IMG/VR virus record: IMGVR_UViG_3300045988_076381
Source: a virus
Length of the DNA: 64,000 nt
Strand: one strand, 5' to 3'
This document shows, piece after piece, positions 13,629-62,141 of the stretch. Position 1 is the first letter of the stretch; each line of letters starts with the position of its first letter. The notes below the pieces were generated by a model. It ran no database searches, was not told the origin of the DNA, and was given only the letters and a program-made list of their open reading frames with translations. Made by a program: the position numbers and the translations under genes.

Positions 13629-13701
13629 GGTCCCATAGCGTAAAGGTTAACGCAAAACACTCATAATGTTGAGATTCTAGGTTCAAGTCCTAGTGGGACC
13701 A
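13629..13701 (+). tRNA. trnM: tRNA, anticodon CAT (Met / fMet / Ile2 not distinguished)
   Basis: Hand-folded cloverleaf. Acceptor ggtccca/tgggacc, D stem gcgt/acgc, anticodon loop cTCATAa, T arm ctagg-ttcaagt-cctag. Confidence 0.8.
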
Positions 13702-13824
13702 CGATATTGATTTTCAGGATTTCTGAGGTTTAGAATTTCTGGATTAATGTTTTTTGTAATTTTTTTCATGATCAGTGTTTAACATTAGCAACATTTAATG
13801 AGATGTGATATCTCCTTCCTTATT

Positions 13825-13849
13825 AAGGAGAGTTAATACTCTCCTTTTT
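13825..13849 (+). terminator. stem-loop terminator
   Basis: aaggagag-ttaata-ctctcctt followed by ttt. Confidence 0.55.
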
Positions 13850-13965
13850 AAATTTGTTTATTATGAGAAAGATAGATATAAAATACATAATGACAATAAT
13901 AGGAATATTTATATTTCTATTATTATTATCTTCATTAGAATCAATCATTAATTCTATTTAAATAA

Positions 13966-14039
13966 GAGCGAATATCCAAATTGGTTAAGGGAATAGTCTG
14001 CAAAACTATATTGTGAGAGTTCGAATCTCTCTTCGCTCT
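13966..14039 (+). tRNA. trnC: tRNA-Cys (GCA)
   Basis: Acceptor gagcgaa/ttcgctc, anticodon arm atagt-ctGCAaa-actat, T arm gagag-ttcgaat-ctctc. Confidence 0.8.
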
Positions 14040-14156
14040 CATTAAATATTATATTTAAAAGGTTATATTCGGAAATATATAAGAATGATATCTTTTAAAT
14101 ACTTTAAAATTATATTAATTAAAATAAATAAAAATAATCTTTTAAATATAATAATT

Positions 14157-14426
14157 ATGAAGATCGTGATTAATAGATCCGGAATTGGATTAAATCTATC
14201 TCTACCAGCTATAGAGTATTTAATTAAATATAAAGTAATTAAGTCTCCATTAGATATGAGAAATATTAATAGGAGTAGCCCAAGATTGGTAAGATGTATC
14301 GAAGTATTAGGAGATAACGCATCTTTAGATATGTTAGAAACGATAACAGTTAGAGATGATTTTAAATATAAAATCTCTGAAATCCAAATAGGTAACATCC
14401 ATAGAGAAATTATCCTCATGGAGTAA
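14157..14426 (+). CDS. hypothetical protein embedded in the tRNA cluster
   Basis: ORF 14085..14426. The internal start MKIVINRSGIGLN... at 14157 is more plausible. Confidence 0.45.
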   Translation: MKIVINRSGIGLNLSLPAIEYLIKYKVIKSPLDMRNINRSSPRLVRCIEVLGDNASLDMLETITVRDDFKYKISEIQIGNIHREIILME

Positions 14427-14594
14427 GATATTTACATATGTAAATCTAATTAGTGTACAATAATTAGATATTCCAAGCTCTACTGGTTACAGAGTATAAA
14501 TAAACCTAGATTTTTAGATTTCCAAATTGACCTAAAATCTAATATCTTAGGATTAGATATAAAATAAGCGTGGAATACTTATTGTTAAATCAAC

Positions 14595-14664
14595 TTCTTA
14601 GTAGTTTAACTGGTGAAAATGTCATATACAGTAGGAAATATTAGTTCGAATCCAATCTAAGAAG
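14595..14664 (+). tRNA. aberrant tRNA-like sequence (anticodon arm not foldable)
   Basis: It has a 7-bp acceptor ttcttag/ctaagaa, a D arm gttt/aaat and a T arm attag-ttcgaat-ccaat. I could not form a 5-bp anticodon stem. Confidence 0.3.
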
Positions 14665-14824
14665 TGATAAAGAAACTCATATAATTCATATCTTAATATT
14701 AACCCGAAAAAAGGGCAACAGTAGGGTTGGGGTGGGTTCAGTGCCCTTGAGATAGTATCAAAATCAGCAATAATGCAGATGAGCTGTAACCACCCCTTTT
14801 ATTAATAATTTTGTTTATATTCTA

Positions 14825-14896
14825 TGCGAGATAGTGTAAAGGTAACATCCTAGGCTCATAACCTAGAGGATGGTGGTTCGAATCCATCTCTCGCTA
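14825..14896 (+). tRNA. trnM: tRNA, anticodon CAT (second copy, 1:72 mismatch)
   Basis: Acceptor tgcgaga/tctcgct with a T:T mismatch at 1:72, anticodon arm ctagg-ctCATaa-cctag, T arm ggtgg-ttcgaat-ccatc. Confidence 0.75.
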
Positions 14897-15132
14897 CTAT
14901 ATAATAGACTTCAGATATTTAACGCGGAATATAGAAGTTTGTTATATTTTATAATTATGCATGCTAATTATAAATCCCAACTCATCCTATGTCTAAGGGG
15001 AGTATAAATTAAAAGCAGATCCATCTTTTTGAGTTTGTATTGGTAATGAGAATAACTCTATAACTTAGAAATGTTATAAAACTTTCTTGAATTTAAGATA
15101 TAAGGTTTGGGAACTTACATCATTAAATTAAC

Positions 15133-15207
15133 TCCTCAGTAGCTCAGTTGGCTAGAGCAGCGGACCGTTAATCCGTAGGATCGTAGGTTCAAGTCCTACC
15201 TGAGGAG
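15133..15207 (+). tRNA. trnN: tRNA-Asn (GTT)
   Basis: Acceptor tcctcag/ctgagga, D arm gctc/gagc, anticodon arm gcgga-ccGTTaa-tccgt, T arm gtagg-ttcaagt-cctac. C at position 33 and a 6-nt variable loop are atypical. Confidence 0.7.
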
Positions 15208-15651
15208 CATAATAAAGAGTGTAGTACTAGTGTAGGACTCAACGTAACTTATAGGTTTTGTATTGTACATATAAATTTAGTCCTATTGGGTGTCGTATAA
15301 CCCAACTTAGCTATCGAGTACGGTTAATGATAGCATTTTTATCGAACTTTCATAAAAATAATTATATGAGAAACAAGCATTATTTCCTAATAGATTAATC
15401 TGATAAACCGTATATTGGAGTTGATACACTTATAATTGTCTAATGCAGCTTCGTATTATAAGAAGCAAGTCAATATAAGAAATCAGTTCAGAATAATGTA
15501 TTGTATTCGACGTGGGATTTAAAATTGTATTTATGTGATAGATGTATAGAGAGAAGATTAAGACGGAAAATATCTGGAGAAGATCTAATTCCAAATGATC
15601 CTGTTAATAATTTATATATACAAATATGTCTAGATTTATAATTTATTAATT

Positions 15652-16035
15652 ATGAAAAAGAGAGAACTCCCAAAAGAAGTAAAGAGATGGATTAAATTTT
15701 TTATAAAAACTAATGCTTATTATAATTTTGATTGGGCATTTATGTTAGATGTAGAAAAAGAGAAATTAACTCAATGTATTAAATTTTTTACTGATAACGG
15801 ATGTCATATTAATAATTCCAGAATAATTTCGAAGATGCAATTGGCTGTGAGATTATTAGATATTGCTAGGGATGAGGATTTAGATTTTAAAGGTTATGTA
15901 AATACTAAGAATATAAATAGATTTATTTCTATAGATAAATATGATATTGATATTCTCCCAACTCTTCGAACTGAAAAAGCGTGGTATTTATATAATAAAT
16001 TAAGATATTATTATATGAAAGAATGGTGGGATTAA
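15652..16035 (+). CDS. hypothetical protein
   Basis: 127-aa ORF between tRNA genes. Confidence 0.55.
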   Translation: MKKRELPKEVKRWIKFFIKTNAYYNFDWAFMLDVEKEKLTQCIKFFTDNGCHINNSRIISKMQLAVRLLDIARDEDLDFKGYVNTKNINRFISIDKYDIDILPTLRTEKAWYLYNKLRYYYMKEWWD

Positions 16036-16044
16036 ATATATTAT

Positions 16045-16130
16045 GCTAGAATGGTGAAATTGACAGACACTCAGGACTTAAAATTCTGTGGATAGTAATA
16101 TCCGTGTGGGTTTGAATCCCACTTCTAGTA
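16045..16130 (+). tRNA. trnL: tRNA-Leu (TAA), type II with long variable arm
   Basis: Acceptor gctagaa/ttctagt, anticodon arm cagga-ctTAAaa-ttctg, variable arm tggatagtaatatccgt, T arm gtggg-tttgaat-cccac. Confidence 0.8.
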
Positions 16131-16422
16131 CTATCTAGATGTAGCAAAATCAGTGAAGTTAAATACAGAAATACGCTTCGTAAGAGAACCTGTAGTCCTT
16201 AAAGGATAGTGGTGACACTGAGCCAATCTATTTATATAGAAGGTGAGATTCCAAAAACTACAATATTTATAGGGAATCAATCATATAAGAAATTATATGA
16301 AATCTCTGATAATCTATAGTGCCTTATAGAAAAACAGGGGATGAAGTTAAGGCACAAACTTCATTGGGATATATTCCCGGCGAAAGAGATTTTATATATC
16401 TCTGGATCTGATTATTTAATAG

Positions 16423-16485
16423 TACTTTGTGCATCGGATGCACTCCGAGGGATGTGAGGTTAAGGTTCGACTCCTTACAAAGTGC
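16423..16485 (+). tRNA. truncated tRNA-like element (acceptor + T arm only)
   Basis: Acceptor tactttg/caaagtg and T arm taagg-ttcgact-cctta. It is only about 63 nt. The interior holds the palindrome tgcatc-g-gatgca and has no anticodon arm. Confidence 0.25.
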
Positions 16486-16515
16486 CTAAGTAGTAATTAT
16501 TTAAATATTCATATT

Positions 16516-17415
16516 ATGGAAATTAGAAATGAGAATAAAGTATTTTTTGGAGAGAGTGGTATTACTTCTACTTCTGCTACATATTTATGTAACATTGCTA
16601 GGGAGTTATTAAAAGATATAGAATCATCTTTAAATAATATCTCCTTCATTACTGAGGAAGTAACACTCTTTGGATCTGAGAATAAGATTAGAACTAAAGA
16701 AGGATATAATTTATCCGAACTATCTGATCTAGATTCTAAACTTACTAAAGCTGCACAACTAAAAGCATTTATAGCATGGATGAGTGAAGGAATCAAAGCA
16801 AAAGATGTGGAAAGTGAGAAACTTAGAGAATATACTTTATCTGATTTTATAAAGGATTTCCCTGAATATGTAGTACAGAGGTCTAAAGATTCTACACTAG
16901 ATCCTAATTATGGACTTGGGAAATTAGATGTTTCAGAACGGGTTAAATATCTCTTCTCAGAAGCTTTAACTTCTTCAATTGGGAAATATATTCATAATAA
17001 TGGTGCTTTAAGAAAAGCTTATAGCGAGCTTTTAAATATTGCACATAACAAAGTGAATATAACCACAGAAGCAAAAGATTCTATAGTTGTAGTCACTAAT
17101 AAAATCCCAAGTGTGGATACTAAAAAAGTAGAAAAGATTATGCTTAAATATCAAGATTTACGAAGAGAGAATGAGAAGGTTCTGAACTCTTTGAAATCTA
17201 AGATAAAAAGTTATGATCATGAATATCAAATATATCTTACTCTTGAAGATAAAGCAGCTTCAGAGTCGTATAATGAAAAGATGGAAGTAGTACGTTCAAA
17301 ATATAATGAATATGTATTAAATAAGAGATCGGAAATTGAGAAACTTAAAATCATCATCCCAGATGGTTTAAGGAGTATTTATAACGATCTTCATACCATC
17401 TCAAAAGAAAAATAA
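16516..17415 (+). CDS. hypothetical coiled-coil-rich protein
   Basis: ORF 16429..17415 trimmed to MEIRNENKV..., because its first 29 codons overlap the tRNA-like element. Confidence 0.6.
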   Translation: MEIRNENKVFFGESGITSTSATYLCNIARELLKDIESSLNNISFITEEVTLFGSENKIRTKEGYNLSELSDLDSKLTKAAQLKAFIAWMSEGIKAKDVESEKLREYTLSDFIKDFPEYVVQRSKDSTLDPNYGLGKLDVSERVKYLFSEALTSSIGKYIHNNGALRKAYSELLNIAHNKVNITTEAKDSIVVVTNKIPSVDTKKVEKIMLKYQDLRRENEKVLNSLKSKIKSYDHEYQIYLTLEDKAASESYNEKMEVVRSKYNEYVLNKRSEIEKLKIIIPDGLRSIYNDLHTISKEK

Positions 17416-17693
17416 ATAAAGTAGGTAATACTTAAATCCATTTGGATGGAGGTATTTTTATATGTATAGATTATATATATAATAAAATTTAGCTAAATAA
17501 TATAGACGATAATATAAACTATTAATGCGAAAGAATCCTCAAAAGATGTTTTTATTTAAATAAATATACTTATTTAAATATAAACTATACTCCTCTTTCT
17601 GTCTTAACCTTAGTCCTTGAGAGGATTCTTGCCCTTGACATATTCTTTGGCTGTATTTATATAATCTATACATAACTATTTTTAATAAACATT

Positions 17694-17764
17694 TGTCCTA
17701 TAGTATAATGGTAATACATCTGGTTTTGGTCCAGAGAATTGAGGTTCAAATCCTCGTAGGACAA
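17694..17764 (+). tRNA. trnQ: tRNA-Gln (TTG)
   Basis: Acceptor tgtccta/taggaca, D arm gtat/atac, anticodon arm tctgg-ttTTGgt-ccaga, T arm tgagg-ttcaaat-cctcg. Confidence 0.8.
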
Positions 17765-23888: not shown

Positions 23889-24358
23889 AAAATATAACTA
23901 TTGAAGTTCAGATAATTGTAAATTAATTAAAGAAGACGATACAACTTTTAAAGTAATTACAGAAAGAGAACCTAAAACTTGGAAAGATTTTTGTGATATT
24001 GTACCAGTTATAAATGAATATTATATAGATCAATTTTCAAACGTGCGTTCGATAAGCTCTGGTAAAAGAGATCCTATGTATGATAGAAATTTATGTGCAA
24101 CCAGAGAAGAAGCAGAAGCTATTGTAGCCCTTATTCAACTAAGAAGATTAAAAGTTGAATGGGATAAATATGAGAAAAAATATTTGTTCAAAAGGTATTT
24201 TTAAATACTATATTATATGGGACTACGGCAATAGTTGTTTAACTATAGGTGAAGGACTTTCAAACCATCTCTTGGAATTTAACTCTAGAGATAGTGCCTC
24301 AGAATTTATAACTTGTTCCAGTTATTTACTTGAAAAAGCTAAATTATTTTTACATTAA
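23885..24358 (+). pseudogene. twice-frameshifted paralog of 33641..34111
   Basis: Three frames read in series: MKNITIEV.. / DNCKLIKEDDTTFKVITEREPKTWKDFCD...REEAEAIVALIQLRRLKVEWDKYEKK / ICSKGIFKYYIIWDYGNSCLTIGEG...LLEKAKLFLH. Together they parallel MKTVTIEIPDDSELIKEGNIYKI..PKTWEEFCN...EVEAEATLALTQLIRLRKAWVGEWD...YYIQSTIDGELTV...LLNRANRFLA. The second shift is at the A6 run 24175-24180. Confidence 0.6.
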
Positions 24359-26598: not shown

Positions 26599-27008
26599 AT
26601 GAATAGAAAAGAAAGAACTATCTCCGAAAATATGGAGAAATTAATGATAGACCAAATCTCAAGAGAATTATATAATCATAATGTATATAGAACATATGCG
26701 AATTACTATTATGTAAGAGGATTGTTTAAATTACATCTTTATTATGAGATGAGATCTAACGAGGAATATAATCATCATCAATGGATTGTTGATAGATTAT
26801 ATAGAGCCGGAGTTGATTTTAATTATCCAGAAGTACCAGCTATTAAATCTAATCATGTTATATTAAAGCCAGAAGATAGTTTTCAGAAAGTAGTAGATTT
26901 AGAGATTGAAACTACTATGTATATAAATAAAATGATAGAAACTGCGAAAGAGGAGAAGGATTGGCAGACGGAGGGATGGTTAAAGAGGACGTTAAATGAA
27001 GAGCAGAT
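26599..27008 (+). CDS. ferritin, exon 1
   Basis: ISRELYNHNVYRTYANYYY...EMRSNEEYNHHQWIVDRL...DLEIETTMYINKMIETA...WLKRTLNEEQ parallels bacterial FtnA up to the EQ.EEE motif. Confidence 0.8.
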
Positions 27009-27200
27009 AAACTTTTGTCTGAAAGTATGGTAACATACAGGTGAATAGATCAAAATCGATGAAGTCTAATTTAGATAATATCGAGGTAAGTATGAATTTA
27101 AAGGATTCATACCACTGTAACGCGTAGGTGTTGAAACTATTAATTATTTATAAATTATATTTTTGCAGAAGAGATAATTGTTTTTATCGTGGAAGAATAT

Positions 27201-27208
27201 TAACTTTG
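27201..27208 (+). promoter_or_regulatory. -7 box TAacTTTG inside the intron, upstream of the endonuclease ORF
   Basis: It lies 31 nt upstream of the ATG at 27239. Confidence 0.4.
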
Positions 27209-27238
27209 TATTTATTACATTTTAATATTTAAATTCTT

Positions 27239-28006
27239 ATGGATAAAAACAGAAAACTAGAATTTGAGGGAAAGATATTTCCTACGAATAATTGTGGCGA
27301 GCTAAAAATCATCGAATATAATGGAGCAACTAATGTAGTGGTGGAGTTTATTACTACTAAAACTATACATTCTACCACTATGAATAACATCAAGAAAGGA
27401 TCAGTATCCGATCCTATGTATCCAACAGTATATGGAATAGGATATATGGGTATAGGAGAGTATAAAAGTAGGACTGGGACTAGTCCTCAAACAACTTGCT
27501 ATAAACGATGGAAAGAAATTCTTAATCGATGCTATAATCCTAAATGTTCTGCTTATAAATTTTATGGAGGAAATGGAGCAATTATATGTGAAGAATGGAA
27601 AAATTTCCAAAATTTTGCATCTTGGTGGTATTCTAACTTTCCAAATTGGGAAGGAATTAAAATTGCTATAGATAAAGATTTATTATGTAAGGGAAATAAG
27701 GAATATTGTCCTGAATACTGCTGCTTTTTACCTCAAGAAATAAACGAAGCTCTTACTTTAAGAAAAAAGGAAAGAGGGGATTATCCAGTTGGAGTACGGT
27801 TAAAAGAAGGAAAAATTATTGCTCAAATTAATTACATGGGAAATAAAAAACATTTAGGAACATTTTCCACTGTTGAAGATGCTTTTGCAAAATATAAAAT
27901 AGAAAAGGAAAAGTGTATGAAAGAATATGCTGATAAATACAAAAATATACTTTCGGAGAGAGTGTATCAAGCATTATATAACTACACTATAAATATAGAT
28001 GATTAA
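27239..28006 (+). CDS. intron-encoded homing-endonuclease-like protein with AP2 DNA-binding domain
   Basis: YKRWKEILNRCYNP....YKFYGGNGAIICEEWKNFQNF is common in phage proteins annotated as HNH/AP2. The C-terminus YPVGVRLKEGKIIAQINYMGNKKHLGTFSTVEDAFAKY is AP2-like. Confidence 0.55.
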   Translation: MDKNRKLEFEGKIFPTNNCGELKIIEYNGATNVVVEFITTKTIHSTTMNNIKKGSVSDPMYPTVYGIGYMGIGEYKSRTGTSPQTTCYKRWKEILNRCYNPKCSAYKFYGGNGAIICEEWKNFQNFASWWYSNFPNWEGIKIAIDKDLLCKGNKEYCPEYCCFLPQEINEALTLRKKERGDYPVGVRLKEGKIIAQINYMGNKKHLGTFSTVEDAFAKYKIEKEKCMKEYADKYKNILSERVYQALYNYTINIDD

Positions 28007-28177
28007 TAGAATAAAATATACCCAAGAGTGATCTACTCCTACAGGTAATGCTGAGGATGAAAATGTACGCTGAACCGTCTGATGATTAAATCAGAATATC
28101 TTTATTTACATCTTCAATAAAGTAAGGAGGAGACTCCCGGAAGTAAGAGATAAAAAACTCTTACGATAACAAAATTG

Positions 28178-28340
28178 GGAAGAAGAAGATGTTAGCCGAA
28201 TAATCCTAACAATGTCTGAGGAAGATACTGACTGGCAGACTAAGGAAGATACTATTCTATCATATTATAATGGATTGAATAGAGTAATAGAAGGAGATAG
28301 AGATATTATTGACAATAACTCTTTTCTTAAACAAAGATAA
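28178..28340 (+). CDS. ferritin, exon 2
   Basis: In frame after splicing: (at+g=M)EEEDVSRIILTMSEEDTDWQTKEDTILSYYNGLNRVIEGDRDIIDNNSFLKQR*. Confidence 0.7.
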
Positions 28341-33640: not shown

Positions 33641-34111
33641 ATGAAAACAGTAACTATTGAAATTCCTGATGATTCAGAACTTATAAAAGAAGGAAATATC
33701 TATAAAATTTGTCAGGTAATACCTAAAACTTGGGAAGAATTTTGTAATAGAACACCTATTAGACGGGAGTATTTTATAGGTTATGATTCAAAAATAAATT
33801 TAAGAGAGAATAAAGGCAGAGCTTTTTGTGGGGATAGAAATTTATATGCATCAGAAGTAGAAGCAGAAGCCACATTAGCTCTTACTCAACTGATAAGGTT
33901 ACGAAAAGCTTGGGTAGGTGAATGGGATCCAGAGAAAGCATGCGCGAATATTTATTATATCCAAAGTACGATAGATGGAGAATTAACAGTATCATTTATA
34001 TCACGTTATGTATACCGTCATACTCTTACGTTCCCATCTAAAAGTATGACAACGCAATTTATAGAATGCTTTAGAGATTTATTAAATAGAGCCAATAGAT
34101 TTTTAGCATGA
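33641..34111 (+). CDS. hypothetical protein (intact paralog of 23885..24358)
   Basis: 156 aa (see the pseudogene entry at 23885..24358). Confidence 0.6.
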   Translation: MKTVTIEIPDDSELIKEGNIYKICQVIPKTWEEFCNRTPIRREYFIGYDSKINLRENKGRAFCGDRNLYASEVEAEATLALTQLIRLRKAWVGEWDPEKACANIYYIQSTIDGELTVSFISRYVYRHTLTFPSKSMTTQFIECFRDLLNRANRFLA

Positions 34112-34951: not shown

Positions 34952-35704
34952 ATGAAAAAAGTAAACAAACCAGTTAAAGCATATAAAGGATTTAACAAGC
35001 ATATGCAATGTACGCTCAATGGGAAAATTTTCCAGTACGAAATTGGTAAGGAATATAAAGAAGATAAGGCTGATTTATGTCATTGCGGTTTTCATGCTTA
35101 CGAGAACCCTCTTGACGTTCTGAGTTATTATAATAACATTGATGACAAATTCTGCGAAGTAGAATTAGATAAAATTGATCCAAATAGAAATAAAGATTCG
35201 AAAATATGCGGAAAGAAAATAAAGATTGGTATTGAAATAGGATTCTTAGGCTTATTTAAAGCGGGAATTGAATGGATTAAAAATAAAACAATATTTACAA
35301 AAGAAGATTTTAAAAAATTACCTTCCAGTTATAATGCTAAGATCAGTTCTTCTGATTATAATGCTAGGATCGGTTCTTTTAGTGATTACGCTCGGATCGG
35401 TTCTTCCGGTGAATACGCTCAGATCGGTTCTTCCGGTGATGGTACTAAGATAGGCTCCTCCGGTAATGGTGCTAAAATCAGTTCTTCTGGTGATGATTGT
35501 GTCATAATGTGCGCTGGTATTAATTCATCAGCTAAAGCAAAAATAGGGTCATGGATTACTCTTGCAGAATGGAAGTATTCAGAAGAAAAACAAAGAGATA
35601 TCCCATTTTCAGTTGTAACAAAACAAGTAGATGGAATTGAGATAAAAGAAGATGTGTACTATACCTTACAAGATGGTAAATTTAAAGAATCAAAACAACA
35701 CTAA
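34952..35704 (+). CDS. phage repeat protein (YKGFNK...CGFHA N-domain plus SSG-x-A-x-IG repeats)
   Basis: The N-terminus KAYKGFNKHMQC...LCHCGFHAYENPLDVLSYY is a widespread phage domain of unknown function. It is followed by about 6 nine-to-ten-residue repeats. Confidence 0.55.
   Translation: MKKVNKPVKAYKGFNKHMQCTLNGKIFQYEIGKEYKEDKADLCHCGFHAYENPLDVLSYYNNIDDKFCEVELDKIDPNRNKDSKICGKKIKIGIEIGFLGLFKAGIEWIKNKTIFTKEDFKKLPSSYNAKISSSDYNARIGSFSDYARIGSSGEYAQIGSSGDGTKIGSSGNGAKISSSGDDCVIMCAGINSSAKAKIGSWITLAEWKYSEEKQRDIPFSVVTKQVDGIEIKEDVYYTLQDGKFKESKQH
35324..35497 (+). repeat. tandem 27-30-nt coding repeats
   Basis: SSYNAKI/SSSDYNARIG/SFSDYARIG/SSGEYAQIG/SSGDGTKIG/SSGNGAKIS/SSGDD. Confidence 0.8.
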
Positions 35705-49374: not shown

Positions 49375-49461
49375 ATGGCTATAGTATTACCAACAAGTAA
49401 AATACAACCAACAGAAACTGAACCTAGGGTATTAGTTATATTCTCGAAGCCAAAGAGTGGT
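49375..49461 (+). CDS. AAA_24/Sak4-like ATPase, exon 1
   Basis: MAIVLPTSKIQPTETEPRVLVIFSKPKSG. It stops inside the Walker A motif. Confidence 0.6.
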
Positions 49462-49501
49462 AAATTTTATTAAAATATTTGGATAAGTAAAATTTTATGG
49501 A

Positions 49502-49509
49502 TATCTTTG
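49502..49509 (+). promoter_or_regulatory. -7 box TAtcTTTG inside the intron
   Basis: It lies 29 nt upstream of the ATG at 49538. Confidence 0.4.
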
Positions 49510-49537
49510 TAATTATTATTAATACAAATATATAATT

Positions 49538-50761
49538 ATGAAGAATAAAATTTTACAACTAAGTAAGAATTGTAATAGTCTAGAAATAGCTAGAATACTA
49601 TCATTATCTCTAAATGAAGTAGAAAAAGTTTTAATTGATGAATATTTTCAAAAGAAATGGAAGATATCTAAAAAGGATCTTGAAGAATTAGCTGCAAGAA
49701 TCTATAATGAATCTCCAACTCTACTATCAGATGAATTTAATATATCAGAAGTAACATTAAAAAAATATTTAGCAGATTGCAAATTGTTTAATACTAAGAA
49801 AAATGTTATCTATGTTCAAAAATCAGAGGAAGAAATTGAAAAATTAGTTCCGGATATAGTTTTAGATTATAATAACCAATTATCTATTGCACAATTAATG
49901 GTTAAATATAAGTTATCTAAAGATAAAGTTAAAGAAATTTTACATAATAATGAAATTTCAACCGGAAAAGTGACCTGTAATGAACATATATTTGATATAA
50001 TTGATTCGGAAGAAAAGGCATATTGGCTAGGGTTCCTATATGCAGATGGAGCAGTGGGGAGTGCTGATAATACTATTGAATTAGCATTAAAACTTTTGGA
50101 TTGTAAACATCTATATAAATTCAAAACTTTTATAGAAGCCAAAAGGGATATAAAAATAGAAACTAGTAAAGTTAAAAGATGCAGATTCTCTGTAAGTAGT
50201 AAACATTTAAAGTCACAACTTATTAAATTAGGTTGTACTCCTCAAAAGTCCTTAACTCTTAAATTTCCAACTAAAGAACAAGTTCCAGATGACTATATCA
50301 TTCCATTTATAAGAGGGTATTATGATGGAGATGGAATATTAACATATAGTTGTTCTACCACTGGTAGAACAGTTTTAGCTACTGGTATGTTGGGAACTGA
50401 AAATTTTTTAACTGGAGTTTTAAGTAAGTTTAAGTATCCATTACATTCTATTTTGCGTTTAGCTAGTTTGGAAGGATCAAGCGAATGTAAACAAGTAAAT
50501 TGGTCAAAAACTGATTCTGAGGAGTTTTTAAATACTATTTACAAAGATGCTACAATTTTTTTGGATAGAAAATATTTACGATACAAATATTTTAAAGACA
50601 ATGGATTTGCCGTCCAAAAAAGTAATTTTTTGGATAATGACAGAGCAATATCGGAAGAGTCTAAACAATGGATTAATCAGTATTTTAGTATAGATATTGA
50701 TTCCTTATTGCATGATAATTCCGAGATAAATATAGAAAGTAACGATTCTATATCATCGTAA
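49538..50761 (+). CDS. intron-encoded double-motif LAGLIDADG homing endonuclease
   Basis: The motifs are KAYWLGFLYADGAVG and FIRGYYDGDGIL, with N-terminal HTH-like repeats. The stop codon TAA lies within the ribozyme block tcgTAAcgcgtag. Confidence 0.8.
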   Translation: MKNKILQLSKNCNSLEIARILSLSLNEVEKVLIDEYFQKKWKISKKDLEELAARIYNESPTLLSDEFNISEVTLKKYLADCKLFNTKKNVIYVQKSEEEIEKLVPDIVLDYNNQLSIAQLMVKYKLSKDKVKEILHNNEISTGKVTCNEHIFDIIDSEEKAYWLGFLYADGAVGSADNTIELALKLLDCKHLYKFKTFIEAKRDIKIETSKVKRCRFSVSSKHLKSQLIKLGCTPQKSLTLKFPTKEQVPDDYIIPFIRGYYDGDGILTYSCSTTGRTVLATGMLGTENFLTGVLSKFKYPLHSILRLASLEGSSECKQVNWSKTDSEEFLNTIYKDATIFLDRKYLRYKYFKDNGFAVQKSNFLDNDRAISEESKQWINQYFSIDIDSLLHDNSEINIESNDSISS

Positions 50762-50939
50762 CGCGTAGGTGTTGAAACTGTATTTATTTAAATACAGAAT
50801 AAAATATACCCAAGAGTGCTCTGCTCCTATTTAATAGGATGAAAAAGTACGCTAAACTGGATCAGAAATAACTGATCGATAATCAATGAGGGAAACCTCC
50901 AGAACTAAAAGATAAAAAGCTTTTAGGATAATATAATTG

Positions 50940-51731
50940 AAATCAACGGCTTTAAGCCTATTAGATAATAACTTAATACTAGATACAGAAAAGGGAACAG
51001 CGTATATTGAAGCATTAAAAGTAGATATTTCTTCAGTTAAAGATATATTAGAAGTATGTAAACAAGTTAAGGCAGCAGGATATCCTTATAAATATATAAC
51101 TCTAGATACTTTAACTTCTTTAGAGGAAATTCTACAACCGTATGCTTTAAATCTATGGAAGAAATCTAACGCATATAATCCAGAAAAGAATCCAGAACAA
51201 CTAAAAGTAACTGATGTATATAGTTTACCTTTTGGGTTAGGCCAAAAGTATATGAGAGATTCATATTTAGCAGTAATCGGATTATTACAACAAGTATGTA
51301 AAAGAATTATTCTAGTATGTCATTCAAAAGATGCGAAAATAAATGAAAATGAATTAACTATAAAAGATATTGATTTAGCTGGAAAATTATCTGATATTAT
51401 TGCATCTAGATATGATGGAGCTGGATATTTATATAGGGATATAAATGATAATACTATTATTACTTTTGATATAAAACAGCTTGCAGCAGAATGTAAATGT
51501 AGAGTTCCTAGATTAGATGGTAAGAAGTTTGTATTAATCGAGAATCGAAATGGGGAATTAATACCTCATTGGGATCGTATTTATTCTTCCGAACCTTATA
51601 GTGGAGAAGATGTAGTTACTACTCCCCAGATTAATGTTACAGATATTTTAGATAAGGAAGATCAATCTGAAAATTCTAACATATCTGAAGAGGAATCTGA
51701 AGTAGATAAACTTTCAAATATAGAATTATAA
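50940..51731 (+). CDS. AAA_24/Sak4-like ATPase, exon 2
   Basis: KSTALSLLDNNLILDTEKGTAYIE...YITLDTLTSLEE...ILVCHSKD. Confidence 0.6.
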   Translation, partial: KSTALSLLDNNLILDTEKGTAYIEALKVDISSVKDILEVCKQVKAAGYPYKYITLDTLTSLEEILQPYALNLWKKSNAYNPEKNPEQLKVTDVYSLPFGLGQKYMRDSYLAVIGLLQQVCKRIILVCHSKDAKINENELTIKDIDLAGKLSDIIASRYDGAGYLYRDINDNTIITFDIKQLAAECKCRVPRLDGKKFVLIENRNGELIPHWDRIYSSEPYSGEDVVTTPQINVTDILDKEDQSENSNISEEESEVDKLSNIEL

Positions 51732-57097: not shown

Positions 57098-58372
57098 AAG
57101 TAAAATTTTTTTATTGTATTTTATTTGTTTTATTTCATTAAATGTATTTAATTTGTATATTATTAAATTATACAATAAAAATACATTTATGAATAATCTA
57201 AATCAAGCTATTAGTGATTACGAACATTTATTTATAGGAATTTGTGAATTAAGTAAAAAATATAAAATTCCTAATAAAGAAATTAGAAAAGCGTTAGAAG
57301 ATAAAGGATATTATTTAGGAAAAGGAGTATCTCCAAAAAGTGTTGTGCATATTAAACTTGCAGTAGAGGAATATAAAAATATTCTTAATGCTGGTGAAGA
57401 ACCTAATATTCATCAACTGGCATTAAAGTATGATATTTCCGATACGTCTATAAAAGACAATTTAATTAGATTAAATCTTCCTGTTGTAAGATACCCTAAA
57501 AAAATCCATTTTGATGAACATGTCTTTGATGTTATAGATACTGAAGAAAAAGCATATTGGCTAGGATTTTTAACTGCTGATGGGTATATTTATAGTAGAG
57601 ATAATACATTTGGAATTAGTCTAGCTAGTATAGATAAGCATCATGTAGAAAAATATGCCACATTTCTTAAATGTCCTCAACATGTTAAATTTAAGAATAA
57701 CGAATATGCTGGAATATATAGATGTGATTTAGGAAACGCTCATGTAAAGCAAGTATTACAAAAATATGGATTTACTGCTTCTAAATCTTTTGACTGTACC
57801 TTTTTAAAAGACCAGTTTTTTGCAAATTCCGATTTAATAAGACATTATATTAGAGGATATTTTGATGGAGATGGCTGTGTCAGTTATAAAAAAAAGTATA
57901 GAAAAACAATTAATGCCACTATTTATATTCCGATAGTTTCTATAGTTGGAACAGAAGCTTTTTTACAAGAATTAAGAAATAAATCAAATTTAATTTGTCT
58001 TTTTCAGTCACAACAAAATCTATGGAATTTATATGGATCTGGAAAAAAGGCAAAAGATTTTCTTTATTACATTTATAATAACGCTACTATTTATTTAGAT
58101 AGAAAATACAATATTTATAGAAATTATATTGCCCCACACTTAGAGAAATCAAGTGTTCCGCAGTGGCCAATATCGGTGGATACTGAAATGTAAATACCGA
58201 GATAAATTCAGAGATTACGAAAGGCTCTGAATCATCGTAACGCGTAGAAGGTGAATAAATATAATCCTTCCAAGAGTGGCTGCCACCTTAAAGGGTGAAA
58301 ATGTACGCTGAACTATATCGAATAACAAGATATAGAAATAAAGGATAAAAAGCCTTTATGATAACAAAATTG
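57098..58372 (+). mobile_element. group-I-like intron carrying a LAGLIDADG endonuclease ORF
   Basis: It starts after ...acaggT and ends ...gataacaaaattG. It has the core blocks gtaacgcgtag (58237-), ccaagagtg (58270-), gtacgctgaac and gataaaaagcc. Confidence 0.75.
57189..58193 (+). CDS. intron-encoded double-motif LAGLIDADG homing endonuclease
   Basis: KAYWLGFLTADGYIY and YIRGYFDGDGCV. It is clearly a paralog of 49538..50761. The ATG at 57189 is preferred over 57114. Confidence 0.8.
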   Translation: MNNLNQAISDYEHLFIGICELSKKYKIPNKEIRKALEDKGYYLGKGVSPKSVVHIKLAVEEYKNILNAGEEPNIHQLALKYDISDTSIKDNLIRLNLPVVRYPKKIHFDEHVFDVIDTEEKAYWLGFLTADGYIYSRDNTFGISLASIDKHHVEKYATFLKCPQHVKFKNNEYAGIYRCDLGNAHVKQVLQKYGFTASKSFDCTFLKDQFFANSDLIRHYIRGYFDGDGCVSYKKKYRKTINATIYIPIVSIVGTEAFLQELRNKSNLICLFQSQQNLWNLYGSGKKAKDFLYYIYNNATIYLDRKYNIYRNYIAPHLEKSSVPQWPISVDTEM

Positions 58373-61131: not shown

Positions 61132-61433
61132 TGATTGTATTTAAATACAATTTGTGCTAATAATAAGAAATTATTATTCGAAACTAGGTTAACTGCTGGG
61201 ACGCCTGAGATGGTAATCAGCAACCAAGCTACAGATTTAAATTCTGTAGAAGGCTCATCGACTATTCCTGAAATGGAAGTAGAATCAAGCGATTCGAAAT
61301 GCCTAGCCCTTAGCATTATATCTAACACAGATATAGATGAAGGTGAAGATATAGTCAGTTCTCATATTAATAAGGAAGTATGAGGAGGTTTTATTAACCC
61401 GTATAAGAGTAGCGAACTTATATGAACACGAAG
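61132..61433 (+). mobile_element. ORF-less intron (type unresolved) after GDSNH
   Basis: 302 nt, higher G+C, starting after ...aatcaT and ending ...cacgaaG. Removing it restores GDSNH-DGDWG (GNHD). Confidence 0.6.
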
Positions 61434-61571
61434 GACGGTGACTGGGGATGGCTAAATAATATTGTTCTTGCCTCTAAATTAGAGCAATTAAATATAGAAT
61501 CTTATATTTCCGATCTTCCAATTGATAAATTTGATGTTGGAAATAATTCTATACTATTCATGCATGGTGAT
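61434..61571 (+). CDS. metallophosphoesterase, exon 2 (46 codons)
   Basis: DGDWGWLNNIVLASKLEQLNIESYISDLPIDKFDVGNNSILFMHGD. It has no start codon of its own and is in frame with both neighbouring exons. Confidence 0.6.
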
Positions 61572-62141
61572 ATATTTTTCATATTTTTAATATAATTATT
61601 TGGGTTCCATAGAAATAATTTATATTTGTTAAATAATAATATATTTAATAAATAAAGATCATTCTAAAATGCTCCTTTCCTTATTAGGAACAGAAGATTT
61701 TTAAATTCTATACAAGATGTATTTTCTACTAAGTACACTTTGGAATATAATCATAATGATAAGAATTCTAAAACTAGAGTACTAGAAATAGCTTGTAGAC
61801 CAGGGCTTAACATTTTACATAAATTATATTCACACTCAAAAATATATTTAAAAAGAAAATATGAAAGATATTTAGAATATTGCCGTCTATATGAGGAATC
61901 ATATAGAGAATTAGAAACCAATAACGGGGAAGGCTGTGATGTCAATCCCGTGATAAGTACAGAAAGTAAAGAGTCTGTGCCATCGTAACGCGTAGAACTT
62001 GAACCTCGAAAGAGAATAAAATAGTTCCAAGAGTGGTTTCTACCCCAACACTTTTATAAGTAGTGGGTAAAAAGGTACGCTGGACTATAGCAAAAAGAAG
62101 CTATAGAAGTTAGGATAAAAAGCCTAACGATAACAAAATCG
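61572..62141 (+). mobile_element. group-I-like intron (shared scaffold) with a decayed LAGLIDADG ORF
   Basis: It ends ...gataacaaaatcG. It has the core blocks gtaacgcgtag (61985-), ccaagagtg (62028-), gtacgctggac and gataaaaagcc. It follows the HGD motif. Confidence 0.7.
61740..61988 (+). pseudogene. C-terminal remnant of a LAGLIDADG endonuclease gene
   Basis: LHKLYSHSKIYLKRKYERYLEY parallels IYKDATIFLDRKYLRYKYF and IYNNATIYLDRKYNIYRNY of the intact copies. Both LAGLIDADG motifs are missing. The stop is again in tcgTAAcgcgtag. Confidence 0.6.

What the first reader, a model, noticed from the sequence alone, without database searches (positions are those of the whole stretch)
27009..28177. 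Same ribozyme scaffold carries different endonuclease families in different loops
The ferritin intron and the ATPase intron share two 22-nt identical blocks. These are gtaacgcgtaggtgttgaaact (27117 / 50758) and gaataaaatatacccaagagtg (about 28009 / 50797). In the ATPase intron the two blocks are separated by only a short hairpin (tatttatttaaataca). In the ferritin intron about 880 nt lies between them, holding an AP2-domain endonuclease ORF with its own promoter motif. The ATPase and nuclease introns instead carry a LAGLIDADG ORF upstream of the first block, with the stop codon embedded in the core (tcgTAAcgcgtag). This looks like independent invasion of one intron backbone by two unrelated endonuclease genes at two peripheral loops.
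Basis: seen in the sequence. Interest (0 to 1): 0.7.

Follow-up and report, generated by a model that had tools for sequence, protein, structure and literature searches.

The report
Phage introns carrying different homing endonucleases
Four related self-splicing group I introns in one phage genome carry unrelated homing-endonuclease genes in two different loops, which is a clear but unsurprising example of selfish genes colonising a shared ribozyme.

Summary
Both 22-nt blocks are exact at 27117/50758 and 28009/50797; none is expected by chance.

The blocks are homologous ribozyme core. Block 1 is J6/7, the P7 5' strand and the P7.1 5' strand. Block 2 is the P7.1 3' strand, the joiner CAAGAGU and the first base of P3'.

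The window holds four introns of one IA-like group I family: ferritin, ATPase, an exonuclease-VIII-like gene and a nuclease. The nuclease gene also has a fifth, canonical intron.

Covariation in more than 190 IMG/VR loci supports P3 to P9.1. Intron-less alleles confirm the ferritin and ATPase splice junctions.

The ferritin ORF is an AP2-domain, atypical-HNH-like protein. It sits in a loop closed by a 15-bp P7.1a helix. The LAGLIDADG ORFs start in the P1 loop and read into the core as far as J6/7. The nuclease-intron copy is only a deletion remnant.

Close relatives have ferritin genes with no intron, an ORF-less intron, this ORF, a T5orf172 ORF, or a 463-nt non-coding insert in the same loop.

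This is a new member of a known kind. Rfam's group I model misses the family.

The parts
26599..27008 (+). Ferritin-like gene, exon 1. It ends ...GAG CAG AU.
   Evidence: Pfam Ferritin, E 1.7e-15. The spliced product is continuous. Intron-less alleles have the same junction.
27009..28177 (+). Ferritin intron A: a 1169-nt group I intron of the IA-like family, ending in omega-G.
27004..27021 (+). P1. Exon CAGAU pairs with the guide GUCUG, with the U.G pair at the splice site. The P1 loop is short and holds no ORF.
   Evidence: 8 contiguous pairs, reached by a fraction 0.016 of random T positions.
27026..27037 (+). P2 hairpin UAUG-GUAA-CAUA. The exon reading frame stops at the UAA in its loop.
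27046..27051 (+). P3 5' strand UAGAUC. It pairs with 28030-28035 (GAUCUA) to form the pseudoknot.
   Evidence: P3 differs and stays complementary in all four introns.
27056..27116 (+). P4-P5-P6-P6a domain. P4 is 27056-61 with 27079-84; P5 is 27064-68 with 27072-76; P6 is 27085-87 with 27114-16; P6a is 27090-97 with 27105-12.
   Evidence: RNAalifold on 53 family sequences shows many compensatory pairs.
27117..27138 (+). Shared block 1: J6/7 (GUAAC), P7 5' strand (GCGUA, 27122-26), P7.1 5' strand (GGUGU, 27127-31), internal loop UGAA, and the start of P7.1a.
27137..27151 (+). P7.1a 5' strand. It forms a 15-bp helix with 27995-28009 that closes the ORF-bearing loop.
   Evidence: read. The helix is compensated in L122, L126 and L129.
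27239..28006 (+). ORF A, 255 aa: an AP2-domain, atypical-HNH-like homing endonuclease candidate. Its last codons and stop lie in the P7.1a 3' strand.
   Evidence: PHROG 'HNH endonuclease' families, E 1e-60 to 1e-42. No Pfam hit of its own. AP2 hits in 11 of 47 homologues. The family profile hits plant AP2 structures. AF2 pLDDT is 93.
28009..28030 (+). Shared block 2: internal loop GAAUAAAAU, P7.1 3' strand (AUACC, 28018-22), joiner CAAGAGU, and the first base of P3'.
28030..28070 (+). P3' (28030-35), P8 hairpin (28036-28059), J8/7 AAAAUG, and P7 3' strand UACGC (28066-70).
28071..28177 (+). UGAAC, an extended P9 (28075-28140), GAA, P9.1 (28143-28164, loop AUAAAAAA), and the tail GAUAACAAAAUUG with omega-G at 28177.
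   Evidence: The order matches the Twort orf142 introns.
28178..28340 (+). Ferritin-like gene, exon 2.
49375..49461 (+). AAA_24 ATPase gene, exon 1. It ends inside the Walker A codons ...AGU GGU.
49462..50939 (+). ATPase intron B: 1478 nt, same family.
49538..50761 (+). LAGLIDADG ORF B, 407 aa. It starts in the P1 loop and reads through the guide (50605-13), P2 (50614-33), P3 (50641-46), P4, P5 and P6. It stops at the UAA in J6/7, giving a 157-nt overlap with the core.
   Evidence: phrog_4645, E 4e-52. 33% identical to ORF C, E 8e-39. Coordinates. P1 has 11 contiguous pairs, fraction 0.002.
50758..50818 (+). Blocks 1 and 2 of intron B, flanking the ORF-less P7.1a hairpin (50780-50796).
50940..51731 (+). 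ATPase gene, exon 2.
   Evidence: Pfam AAA_24, E 2.3e-13. Intron-less alleles are seen in 21 of 23 related contigs.
57098..58372 (+). Intron C in an exonuclease-VIII-like gene. Same family, with the short form of P7.1 that has no P7.1a.
57190..58193 (+). LAGLIDADG ORF C, counted from the first ATG (ORF listing starts it at a TTG at 57114). It stops in the P5 region, giving a 65-nt overlap with the core.
   Evidence: Pfam LAGLIDADG_3, E 1.2e-10. phrog_4645. Coordinates.
61132..61433 (+). Intron D1 in the metallophosphatase-type nuclease gene: an ORF-less canonical group I intron of a different lineage.
   Evidence: Rfam RF00028, 67 bits, E 4.9e-17, when searched alone. The spliced frame is continuous.
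61569..62141 (+). Intron D2 in the same nuclease gene, 135 nt downstream of D1. It belongs to the family. The guide is 61877-86, P2 is 61887-906, and P3 is 61914-19 with 62035-40.
61740..61988 (+). Remnant of the LAGLIDADG ORF (C-terminal 82 codons). The rest was lost in a deletion of about 710 nt.

Best explanation
The window comes from an AT-rich phage with no close cultured relative. It carries four members of one family of self-splicing group I introns. These are IA-like, with a single P7.1 helix that is optionally extended by P7.1a, and a Twort-like P9/P9.1 tail.

Inferred mechanism:
- Each intron folds so that an internal guide sequence pairs with the end of the upstream exon (P1, with a U.G pair at the splice site).
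- A guanosine bound in P7 attacks the 5' splice site.
- The terminal G of the conserved tail GAUAACAAAAUUG then defines the 3' splice site.

The two 22-nt blocks are the P7/P7.1 heart of this fold.

The ribozyme tolerates large inserts only in loops that point away from the core, and different selfish genes have settled in different loops. A LAGLIDADG homing endonuclease gene sits in the P1 loop of the ATPase, exonuclease and nuclease introns. Its 3' end has crept into the core by 65 to 157 nt, and it is reduced to a remnant in the nuclease intron. An AP2-domain, atypical-HNH-type gene sits in the P7.1a loop of the ferritin intron.

The encoded enzymes presumably cut intron-less alleles of the host gene in co-infecting phages, so that repair copies the intron together with its ORF (homing).

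What is shown: the fold (by covariation), the exon junctions, the ORF positions and families, and the presence/absence polymorphisms.
What is inferred: catalysis of splicing, nuclease activity and homing.
For: Exact blocks.

Splice junctions:
- All four host genes give continuous proteins after splicing. The ATPase shows GKS/T, ferritin shows EEQ|MEEE, and the nuclease shows GDSNHD.
- Intron-less ferritin alleles in 3 contigs and intron-less ATPase alleles in 21 of 23 contigs carry the predicted junction.

Fold:
- P3 is different but complementary in all four introns. A 6/6 complement was found upstream in 69 of 97 unique relatives.
- All four Watson-Crick pair types occur at each variable position of P7.1.
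- RNAalifold independently recovers P4, P5, P6, P6a, P7, P7.1, P8, P9 and P9.1 with many compensatory changes.
- For P7, the double variant GCAUA/UAUGC occurs in 70 IMG/VR stretches. The single variant GCAUA/UACGC occurs in none.

ORF positions: coordinates. P1 pairing across the LAGLIDADG ORF is 11 pairs in B and 10 in D2, with fractions of 0.002-0.003.

ORF families.

Polymorphism and spread:
- ORF A homologues of 94, 80, 57 and 54% identity all sit in the same loop of ferritin introns.
- ORF-less ferritin introns exist in L010, L162, L163 and L174.
- LAGLIDADG frames lie upstream of at least 30 of 86 family cores and end at seven different core positions.
Against: - Rfam's group I model RF00028 does not match any member of this family, not even the complete ORF-less copy at E<=10. 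It does match intron D1 and the three Twort introns. Group I membership therefore rests on my own structural model.
- P1 of intron C is only 5 pairs, which is not significant (fraction 0.057).
- ORF A has no recognisable catalytic histidines and no Pfam nuclease hit. Foldseek against the PDB matches only its AP2 part, with E>0.1.
- No ribosome-binding site or verified promoter precedes ORF A.
- No splicing or cleavage experiment is available.
Confidence: 0.85

Rival explanations
1. The identical blocks do not reflect common descent of a whole scaffold. Instead they reflect recent recombination or gene conversion between the ferritin and ATPase introns inside one genome. This would have homogenised only the P7-P7.1-P8 segment.
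For: - The blocks share the otherwise highly variable 4-bp part of the P7.1 stem (GUGU/AUAC). Among the other unique cores fetched, only the ferritin intron copy L010 has that stem.
- The P8 of intron B matches the P8 of the L010-type ferritin intron, whereas P3, P4-P6 and P9 differ.
- Overall identity of the 3' halves of A and B is only 73%, no higher than to unrelated family members.
- Ferritin-intron alleles show reassortment of P8 type against loop cargo.
Against: - About 36 of the 44 identical bases are conserved across the whole family, so they carry no lineage signal.
- A shared 4-bp stem is weak evidence.
- Even if true, this rival does not change what the elements are or where the ORFs sit.
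Confidence: 0.25
2. Differential loss rather than independent gain. An ancestral intron carried ORFs in both loops, and the present introns each kept one.
For: - Loss clearly happens. Intron D2 in the window is a roughly 710-nt deletion derivative of an ORF-bearing intron.
- ORF-less ferritin introns coexist with ORF-bearing ones.
Against: - No family member examined has ORFs in both L1 and P7.1a.
- The ferritin intron has a 6-nt P1 loop with no LAGLIDADG trace, in every ferritin-intron copy whose P1 region was read (window, L010, L121, L122, L126, L129, L165).
- Introns B, C and D2, and more than 80 relatives, have short ORF-free P7.1 regions with no remnant.
- The P7.1a loop of the ferritin intron holds three unrelated cargos in close relatives, which needs repeated gain.
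Confidence: 0.1
3. ORF A is not an endonuclease. It would be an AP2-domain DNA-binding protein carried as cargo, for example a transcriptional silencer like the CapR/AP2 'CasPR' anti-CRISPR proteins, or a splicing helper.
For: - ORF A has no Pfam nuclease hit, and there is no histidine in the conserved centre, which is D145-K146-D147 ... N169.
- Only the AP2 part matches solved structures.
- AP2-domain phage proteins that only bind DNA are documented (bioRxiv 10.64898/2026.02.23.707548).
Against: - The best PHROG families are annotated as HNH endonuclease, E 1e-60.
- The AF2 model has a beta-beta-alpha unit (142-145, 162-165, helix 166-172) that carries the invariant residues.
- Atypical HNH domains that Pfam misses, joined to a C-terminal AP2 domain, are a described homing-endonuclease class (IPA-HNH; PMC10448857).
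- The gene shows the presence/absence pattern of a homing element, and it alternates with a T5orf172 gene in the same loop.
Confidence: 0.15
4. The repeated blocks are not introns. They would be a dispersed intergenic repeat or regulatory element between separate small genes.
For: Rfam gives no hit.
Against: - The flanking reading frames join precisely into conserved single proteins.
- Relatives have the same genes uninterrupted at exactly those points.
- Covariation supports a pseudoknotted group I fold.
Confidence: 0.02

Closest known systems
Staphylococcus phage Twort orf142 group I introns (subgroup IA2; AF132670)
   Same: - They are phage protein-gene introns, with several in one gene.
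- They have the same 3' architecture: P7 3' strand, UGAAC, P9 hairpin, GAA, P9.1 hairpin, then G(A)UAACAnAAUUG with omega-G.
- They have a similar J6/7 (..AAC) and an extra helix between P7 and P3'.
   Different: - Twort has the canonical R and S elements (GACUA/UAGUC, J8/7 GAUAUA), plus P7.1 and P7.2. Rfam finds these introns at 64-101 bits.
- The present family has P7 GCGUA/UACGC, J8/7 GAAAAUG and a single P7.1 (with or without P7.1a) followed by the unpaired joiner CAAGAGU. Rfam finds none of it.
Phage T4 td, nrdB and sunY (nrdD) introns with I-TevI, I-TevIII and I-TevII (from my own knowledge, not retrieved here)
   Same: They are structurally related IA introns in one phage genome. Each has an endonuclease ORF looped out of a peripheral element. 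The endonuclease families differ (GIY-YIG and HNH) and the ORFs sit at different positions. This is the classical argument that ORFs invaded introns independently.
   Different: The ribozyme subfamily, the host genes, the endonuclease families (LAGLIDADG and AP2/atypical HNH) and the loops used (L1 and L7.1a) are all different.
'Core creep': endonuclease ORFs that extend into ribozyme core sequence (Edgell, Chalamcharla and Belfort 2011, PMC3073962)
   Same: The ORFs start in a loop and end inside core helices, and the end point varies between related elements, as that model predicts. The paper's table lists a P1-inserted ORF overlapping P1/P2 by 61 nt and a P8-inserted ORF overlapping by 81 nt.
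   Different: - The overlap here is longer. In intron B it is 157 nt, covering the guide, P2, P3, P4, P5 and P6 up to J6/7.
- Seven different stop positions are seen across the family.
IPA-HNH (AP2-associated atypical HNH) and T5orf172 homing endonuclease genes of ICP1-like and other phages (Barth et al. 2023, PMC10448857)
   Same: - ORF A shares the architecture described there: a nuclease-like domain too divergent for Pfam HNH_3, followed by a C-terminal AP2 domain.
- The alternative occupant of the same loop in relatives is a T5orf172 protein.
   Different: - The genes in that paper are described as free-standing. Here the genes lie inside a group I intron loop.
- I did not compare ORF A directly with the ICP1 proteins. 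Its conserved motif is DKD...N, without histidine.
Bacillus thuringiensis nrdF group IA intron with a GIY-YIG ORF (PMC2248736)
   Same: It is a group IA intron of a Bacillota element. It has extra helices between P7 and P3' (that paper's figure labels them P7.1 and P7.2; the overlap table of PMC3073962 lists P7.1/7.1a), an ORF overlapping core elements, and an ORF-deleted allele in a sister strain.
   Different: Its ORF starts in P6a, it is from a different endonuclease family, and it keeps canonical R and S elements.

Membership tests
Group I intron | P1 helix between the exon end and an internal guide, with a U.G pair at the 5' splice site, and a terminal G at the 3' end. | tested here: met
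   All four introns follow a U and end in G. Contiguous P1 pairs are 8 (A), 11 (B), 10 (D2) and 5 (C); the last is weak.
Group I intron | Conserved core fold: P3-P8 and P4-P6 domains, with the P3/P7 pseudoknot supported by covariation. | tested here: met
   For P7, the double variant has 70 loci and the single variant has none.
Group I intron | Exact excision that restores the host reading frame, confirmed by intron-less alleles. | tested here: met
   Ferritin and ATPase junctions are identical to uninterrupted alleles. Introns C, D1 and D2 are supported by reading frame only.
Group I intron | A match to the curated covariance model Rfam RF00028. | tested here: not met
   No hit for A, B, C, D2 or the ORF-less L010, even at E<=10. 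D1 (67 bits) and the Twort introns (64-101 bits) do match. I read this as a limit of the model, because every structural criterion is met.
Group I intron | Guanosine-dependent self-splicing. | not testable with these tools
   This needs in vitro transcription and splicing, or RT-PCR.
Group I subgroup IA2 | P7.1 and P7.2 between P7 and P3', linked by G-U-A (criterion quoted in PMC3428280). | tested here: not met
   There is only one helix, P7.1, optionally extended as P7.1a. It is followed by the unpaired joiner CAAGAGU. The family is IA-like and possibly IA1-like, but it was not assigned.
LAGLIDADG homing endonuclease (ORFs B and C, and the D2 remnant) | Two LAGLIDADG motifs or a Pfam LAGLIDADG domain. 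| tested here: met
   ORF C hits PF14528 at E 1.2e-10. ORF B is sub-threshold (E 0.032) but is 33% identical to C (E 8e-39), and both hit phrog_4645. The motifs YWLGFLYADG and IRGYYDGDG are visible in the sequence. The D2 remnant keeps only the C-terminal tail.
AP2-associated atypical HNH homing endonuclease (ORF A) | C-terminal AP2 DNA-binding domain. | tested here: met
   ORF A alone gives no Pfam hit. At family level, 11 of 47 homologues hit PF00847 (best E 1.3e-10). The family profile hits plant AP2/ERF structures at residues 183-222 (E 6e-4). The AF2 model superposes on the TEM1 AP2 domain at 1.2-1.4 A over 38 residues.
AP2-associated atypical HNH homing endonuclease (ORF A) | HNH or beta-beta-alpha-metal catalytic domain. 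| tested here: inconclusive
   PHROG 'HNH endonuclease' families match at E 1e-60. The model predicts a beta-beta-alpha unit carrying the invariant D145, K146, D147 and N169. However, Pfam HNH_3 hits only 1 of 47 homologues (E 0.006), there is no histidine, and no solved nuclease structure matches.
AP2-associated atypical HNH homing endonuclease (ORF A) | Site-specific cleavage near the insertion site, and homing. | not testable with these tools
   Only the population pattern is available: empty site, ORF-less intron and ORF-bearing intron in close relatives.

The most novel reading that the evidence does not exclude
The P7.1a loop of the ferritin intron may be a recurrent cargo slot that mobile genes target directly, rather than a place that was invaded once.

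In phages whose ferritin exons are 93-99% identical in protein sequence, this one loop takes four states:
- empty;
- the AP2/atypical-HNH gene;
- an unrelated T5orf172 (GIY-YIG superfamily) gene;
- a 463-nt insert with no ORF longer than 43 codons. This insert begins with a promoter-like AT-rich stretch, has a GC-rich core of about 200 nt (38-52% GC), and ends in a perfect intrinsic terminator.

The cargos are reassorted against the two P8 variants that lie only about 40 nt away.

The most novel reading has two parts. First, endonuclease genes move between intron copies by recognising the intron's own loop DNA, so the intron acts as a landing pad. Second, the non-coding insert is a structured RNA gene carried as intron cargo.
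Probability: 0.2. Interest if true: 0.6.

Novelty: new member of a known kind. Interest (0 to 1): 0.4.

Why it matters
The idea that homing endonuclease genes and group I ribozymes have separate histories is well established. The finding therefore confirms that idea rather than overturning anything.

The locus has three practical uses.

1. It is a natural experiment. One ribozyme family in one uncultured gut-type phage lineage shows every stage of the homing cycle: empty site, ORF-bearing intron, decayed ORF and ORF-less intron. It also shows two loops used by unrelated endonuclease families, exchange of cargo within one loop, and a graded series of ORF ends creeping into the core. These features could be used to test the 'core creep' and intron-invasion models quantitatively.

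2. The family is common: more than 190 stretches in IMG/VR, plus 30 stretches in GTDB-representative genome contigs, mostly MAGs labelled Bacillota. It is invisible to Rfam's group I model. Genes split by it are therefore likely to be mis-annotated as fragments plus 'HNH endonuclease' or 'hypothetical protein', as in the GenBank phage records hit here.

3. ORF A gives an intron-borne example of the little-studied AP2-linked atypical HNH class, together with a defined candidate target, the intron-less ferritin allele.

Tried and rejected
- Rfam at gathering and E-value thresholds found only tRNAs and noise. This covered the whole window, the ORF-free 3' part of intron B, and six related loci including the complete ORF-less ferritin intron. 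The structure therefore had to be built by hand and tested by covariation.
- Megablast of the region against GenBank phages gave no match. The DNA polymerase is only about 34% identical to those of known phages, so the host could not be named.
- Pfam on ORF A at E<=10, and phmmer of ORF A against PDB sequences, gave nothing useful. Foldseek of the whole model against the PDB matched only the AP2 part, so the catalytic domain stays unassigned.
- The sigma-70 promoter scan around ORF A was not distinguishable from background. The 13-mer TTTGTAWWTATTA with one mismatch is not enriched: 13 matches against 7.8 expected.
- I considered that the 445-464-nt inserts in the ferritin introns of relatives were truncated copies of ORF A, and rejected this. 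BLAST shows no similarity to ORF A in the insert. One class encodes a T5orf172 protein. The other class has no ORF and no similarity to any of the endonuclease proteins.
- Rfam on the non-coding insert gave nothing. Its folding z-score is only -2.55. An exact 32-mer from it occurs only in the same ferritin-intron context.
- I did not build a covariance model, because a model of about 300 nt with a pseudoknot would exceed the calibration limit. I used MAFFT plus RNAalifold in scripts, and anchored pair counts, instead.
Full report
OBSERVATION

A third copy of the second string, with three mismatches, lies at 62014. None is expected by chance. A repeat search then showed four copies of a larger set of conserved segments, around 27100, 50741, 58220 and 61968, with matching 3' tails around 28140, 50902 and 58335.

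In the ATPase copy the blocks are 17 nt apart and flank a small hairpin. In the ferritin copy they are 870 nt apart and flank ORF 27239-28006.

WHAT THE ELEMENTS ARE

Reading the flanking frames gave five interruptions of four genes:
- a ferritin-like gene: 26599-27008 | 28178-28340;
- an AAA_24 ATPase, split inside the Walker A codons: 49375-49461 | 50940-51731;
- an exonuclease-VIII-like gene: 56303-57097 | 58373 onward;
- a metallophosphatase-type nuclease with three exons: 59974-61131 | 61434-61568 | 62142-62438.

Every join restores one long frame with the expected motifs: EEQ|MEEE, SGK|ST, GDSNH|D.

The joins are not just plausible. Three related IMG/VR contigs carry the ferritin gene uninterrupted with exactly ...CAGAT|GGAAGAAGA. 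In addition, 21 of 23 related contigs carry the ATPase gene uninterrupted at K-S-G|K-S-T.

All introns follow a U and end in G. The first nuclease intron (61132-61433) is a canonical ORF-less group I intron that Rfam recognises when it is searched alone (67 bits). The other four belong together.

THE FOLD

Rfam does not recognise the four introns. It also does not recognise a complete ORF-less relative. I therefore built the structure by hand from the four copies and tested it on relatives.

The same pattern retrieved 30 stretches from GTDB-representative genome contigs, mostly metagenome-assembled genomes labelled Bacillota.

The relatives gave the following results:
- In 97 unique cores, the helix that starts at the last G of the first segment (P7.1) is paired in essentially every sequence. 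All four Watson-Crick pair types occur at each variable position.
- The six bases after CAAGAGU (P3') have a perfect upstream complement in 69 of 97 cores, usually 69-78 nt before J6/7 and again with many pair types. In the window the P3 pairs are UAGAUC/GAUCUA, CAGAGC/GCUCUG, GUGGCC/GGCUGC and GAAACC/GGUUUC.
- RNAalifold, run independently on 67 3' halves and 53 5' halves, recovers P4, P5, P6, P6a, P7, P7.1, P8, P9 and P9.1 with abundant compensatory changes.
- P7 was fixed by my search pattern, so I tested it separately. The double variant GCAUA...UAUGC occurs in 70 IMG/VR stretches. The mismatching single variant GCAUA...UACGC occurs in none.

The order of elements is P1-P2-P3-P4-P5-P6-P6a-P7-P7.1(-P7.1a)-P3'-P8-P7'-P9-P9.1-omegaG, with the P3/P7 pseudoknot. 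This is a group I intron of the IA type.

Its 3' portion (P7', UGAAC, P9, GAA, P9.1, GAUAACAnAAUUG) has the same plan as the Twort orf142 introns, which I retrieved for comparison. It differs from them in three ways:
- P7 and J8/7 have different sequences (GCGUA/UACGC and GAAAAUG, instead of GACUA/UAGUC and GAUAUA).
- There is one helix between P7 and P3' instead of P7.1 plus P7.2.
- It is invisible to RF00028, which scores the Twort introns at 64-101 bits.

WHAT THE BLOCKS ARE

Block 1 consists of J6/7 (GUAAC), the P7 5' strand (GCGUA), the P7.1 5' strand (GGUGU), the internal loop UGAA and the first bases of P7.1a. Block 2 consists of the internal loop GAAUAAAAU, the P7.1 3' strand (AUACC), the joiner CAAGAGU and the first base of P3'.

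The blocks are therefore homologous core elements. Most of their 44 bases are conserved across the whole family. Only the 4-bp variable part of the P7.1 stem and a few P7.1a bases are specific to the ferritin and ATPase introns.

Overall, the 3' halves of these two introns are 73% identical, which is no closer than to many unrelated family members. The segment from P7 to P8 of the ATPase intron does resemble the ferritin intron of relative L010. Some exchange between introns is therefore possible, but I rate it a minor rival.

WHERE THE ORFS SIT

In the ferritin intron the ORF lies in a loop closed by a 15-bp helix, P7.1a (27137-27151 with 27995-28009). This helix extends P7.1. The last four codons and the stop of the ORF are part of its 3' strand. 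The helix is maintained by different sequences in relatives L122, L126 and L129.

In introns B, C and D2 the internal guide sequence is not near the 5' splice site. It lies after most of the ORF, directly in front of the P2 hairpin: AUUUGCCGU at 50605-13, UUGCC at 58129-33 and AUAUUGCCGU at 61877-86.

The guide pairs with the splice-site region over 11, 5 and 10 contiguous pairs respectively, including the U.G pair. The fraction of random T positions in the window that reach the same length is 0.002, 0.057 and 0.003.

The LAGLIDADG ORF therefore starts in the P1 loop and reads on through the guide, P2 and P3. In B and D2 it also reads through P4, P5 and P6 to the UAA in J6/7, an overlap of 157 nt. 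In C it stops in the P5 region, an overlap of 65 nt.

Across the family, at least 30 of 86 cores have a homologous LAGLIDADG frame upstream. These frames end at seven different positions relative to J6/7: about +8, +1, -10, -25, -55, -80 and -210. The 'core creep' model predicts this variable extension (PMC3073962).

WHAT THE ORFS ARE

ORFs B and C are LAGLIDADG proteins. C hits Pfam LAGLIDADG_3 at E 1.2e-10. Both hit phrog_4645. They are 33% identical to each other.

The nuclease-intron ORF in the window is only the C-terminal 82 codons. Relatives L008, L025 and L036 have the same intron with a full ORF. The window copy lacks about 710 nt relative to them.

ORF A gives no Pfam hit of its own, but several results place it:
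- It matches PHROG families annotated as HNH endonuclease at E 1e-60.
- AP2 domains are found in 11 of 47 of its homologues, and DUF723 in 2.
- The family profile matches plant AP2/ERF structures at residues 183-222.
- A confident AlphaFold model (pLDDT 93) superposes on an AP2 domain at 1.2-1.4 A.
- The model resembles many phage proteins, some named AP2-domain protein or HNH homing endonuclease.

The centre of the protein is predicted as a beta-beta-alpha unit carrying the invariant residues D145-K146-D147 and N169, with no histidine.

This architecture fits the 'IPA-HNH' class described for ICP1-like phages: an atypical HNH domain that Pfam misses, followed by a C-terminal AP2 domain (PMC10448857). 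I did not compare ORF A with those proteins directly, and the nuclease activity is inferred.

The 'own promoter motif' is not verified. The only hint is the 13-mer TTTGTAWWTATTA, found exactly twice in the window, each time about 20 nt upstream of the start codon of ORF A or ORF B.

EVIDENCE FOR SEPARATE HISTORIES OF RIBOZYME AND ORFS

- ORF A homologues of 94, 80, 57 and 54% identity all lie in the P7.1a loop of ferritin introns at the same exon position. More distant homologues (about 42-43% identical) appear to be free-standing.
- Eighteen related contigs carry the ferritin gene in five states. Three are intron-less. Three have a 320-nt ORF-less intron. Two, plus the window, have ORF A. Five have a different 129-aa ORF in the very same loop (Pfam T5orf172 E 6e-6, GIY-YIG E 0.014). 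Five have a 463-nt insert in that loop with no ORF longer than 43 codons.
- These cargos are reassorted against two variants of P8 only about 40 nt away.
- Contig 079148 has ATPase-intron ORF B 100% identical to the window's, but an ORF-less ferritin intron.
- Other family members carry an HNH-like ORF (L048) or an Endonuclease VII ORF (L051, Pfam E 1e-19) in the P9 loop.
- Intron-less ATPase alleles differ from the intron-bearing allele by a cluster of synonymous changes right at the insertion site: AAATCCGGG|AAATCT against AAGAGTGGT|AAATCA. This pattern would be expected from co-conversion or from cleavage-resistant targets.

MECHANISM

The steps that are shown are the fold, the junctions, the ORF positions and the polymorphisms. 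The steps below are inferred.

The RNA folds so that the guide pairs with the exon end. Guanosine bound in P7 attacks the bond after the U.G pair. The conserved tail places omega-G in P7 for exon ligation. P10 is possible: in intron B the first four intron bases, AAAU, are repeated as the first four bases of the downstream exon.

An in-frame stop occurs soon after each 5' splice site where this was checked: eight codons into intron A, three into B and one into C. The ORFs lie in loops that point away from the core. Their products probably cut intron-less alleles in co-infecting phages and are copied in by repair.

COMPARISON AND NOVELTY

Related introns in one phage that carry different endonuclease families at different loops is the classical T4 situation (from my own knowledge). 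ORFs placed in peripheral loops, overlap of ORFs with the core, and the gain-decay-loss cycle are all described in the reviews I read (PMC3984707, PMC3073962).

The finding is therefore a new member of a known kind. The less ordinary aspects are these:
- The ribozyme family is abundant in gut-type phages yet missed by Rfam.
- The overlap between ORF and core is very long.
- P7.1a is used as a cargo loop.
- Three unrelated cargos occupy that one loop in near-identical phages, one of them non-coding, with a promoter-like start and a perfect terminator.

The last point lies outside the window and is unresolved.

VERDICT

- The loops are L1 and L7.1a.
- The nuclease-intron ORF is a remnant.
- The direction of gain or loss is not resolved for individual alleles.

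Interest is 0.4.

Noticed in passing
L165:2542-2985 (also L166, L168, L169, L172; related IMG/VR contigs, not the window): In five close relatives the P7.1a loop of the ferritin intron holds a 463-464-nt insert with no ORF longer than 43 codons on either strand. It has a promoter-like AT-rich start, a GC-rich core of about 200 nt (38-52% GC, in a phage of about 30% GC), and a perfect terminator hairpin followed by seven T. There is no Rfam hit, no similarity to the endonuclease proteins, and the folding z-score is -2.55. It could be a non-coding RNA cargo or a decayed gene.
   Followed up: partly
L160, L161, L170, L171, L173 (ferritin intron, P7.1a loop): A 129-aa T5orf172 / GIY-YIG-superfamily ORF occupies exactly the loop that holds the AP2-type ORF in the window. 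The cargo has been swapped within one loop of one intron among near-identical phages.
   Followed up: partly
window 61132-61433: A fifth intron, ORF-less and canonical, lies in the nuclease gene only 135 nt upstream of the family intron D2. It is a group I intron with R and S elements like Twort's. Rfam scores it 67 bits, but only when the region is searched alone; both whole-window scans missed it.
   Followed up: yes
whole family: window 27009-28177, 49462-50939, 57098-58372, 61569-62141; L001-L120, L182-L251, L252-L281: This intron family occurs in more than 190 IMG/VR stretches and in 30 stretches of GTDB-representative genome contigs, mostly MAGs labelled Bacillota. Cores are also seen in Staphylococcus phage 6ec, Clostridium phages phiCP39-O and phiCP26F, Bacillus phage BMBtp13, Prevotella phage Lak-A1 and a phage record named cr6_1. 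Rfam RF00028 does not detect it. The GenBank records annotate the region as hypothetical protein, HNH endonuclease or tape measure.
   Followed up: partly
window 49450-49461 and 50940-50957, compared with L134-L156: Intron-less ATPase alleles in 21 related contigs differ from the intron-bearing allele by clustered synonymous changes at the insertion site. One is a TCC to AGT serine codon switch. Another is GGG instead of GGT at the splice-site position.
   Followed up: partly
window 27205-27217 and 49506-49518: The 13-mer TTTGTAWWTATTA occurs exactly twice in the window, each time about 20 nt upstream of an intron ORF start codon (ORF A and ORF B). Expectation is 0.27, and 3 of 100 shuffles reach two matches. 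It may be a shared expression signal.
   Followed up: partly
window 13629-17764: A cluster of seven tRNA genes on the + strand.
   Followed up: no
window 35322-35510: Six tandem copies of a 27-nt unit (reported as a 54-nt family with 27-nt spacing) lie inside ORF 34952-35704. This is probably a repetitive structural or fibre-like protein.
   Followed up: no
window 23970-24150 and 33721-33901: Two stretches 72-78% identical lie 9751 nt apart. This indicates a duplicated (paralogous) gene segment.
   Followed up: no
L048:700-1590: In a relative, a canonical group I intron 3' end (GAUAGUC UGAAC ... GAUAACAAAUUG) lies about 150 nt upstream of a family intron. That family intron carries a 173-aa HNH-like ORF in its P9 loop. 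This is another gene with introns of both lineages in tandem.
   Followed up: partly
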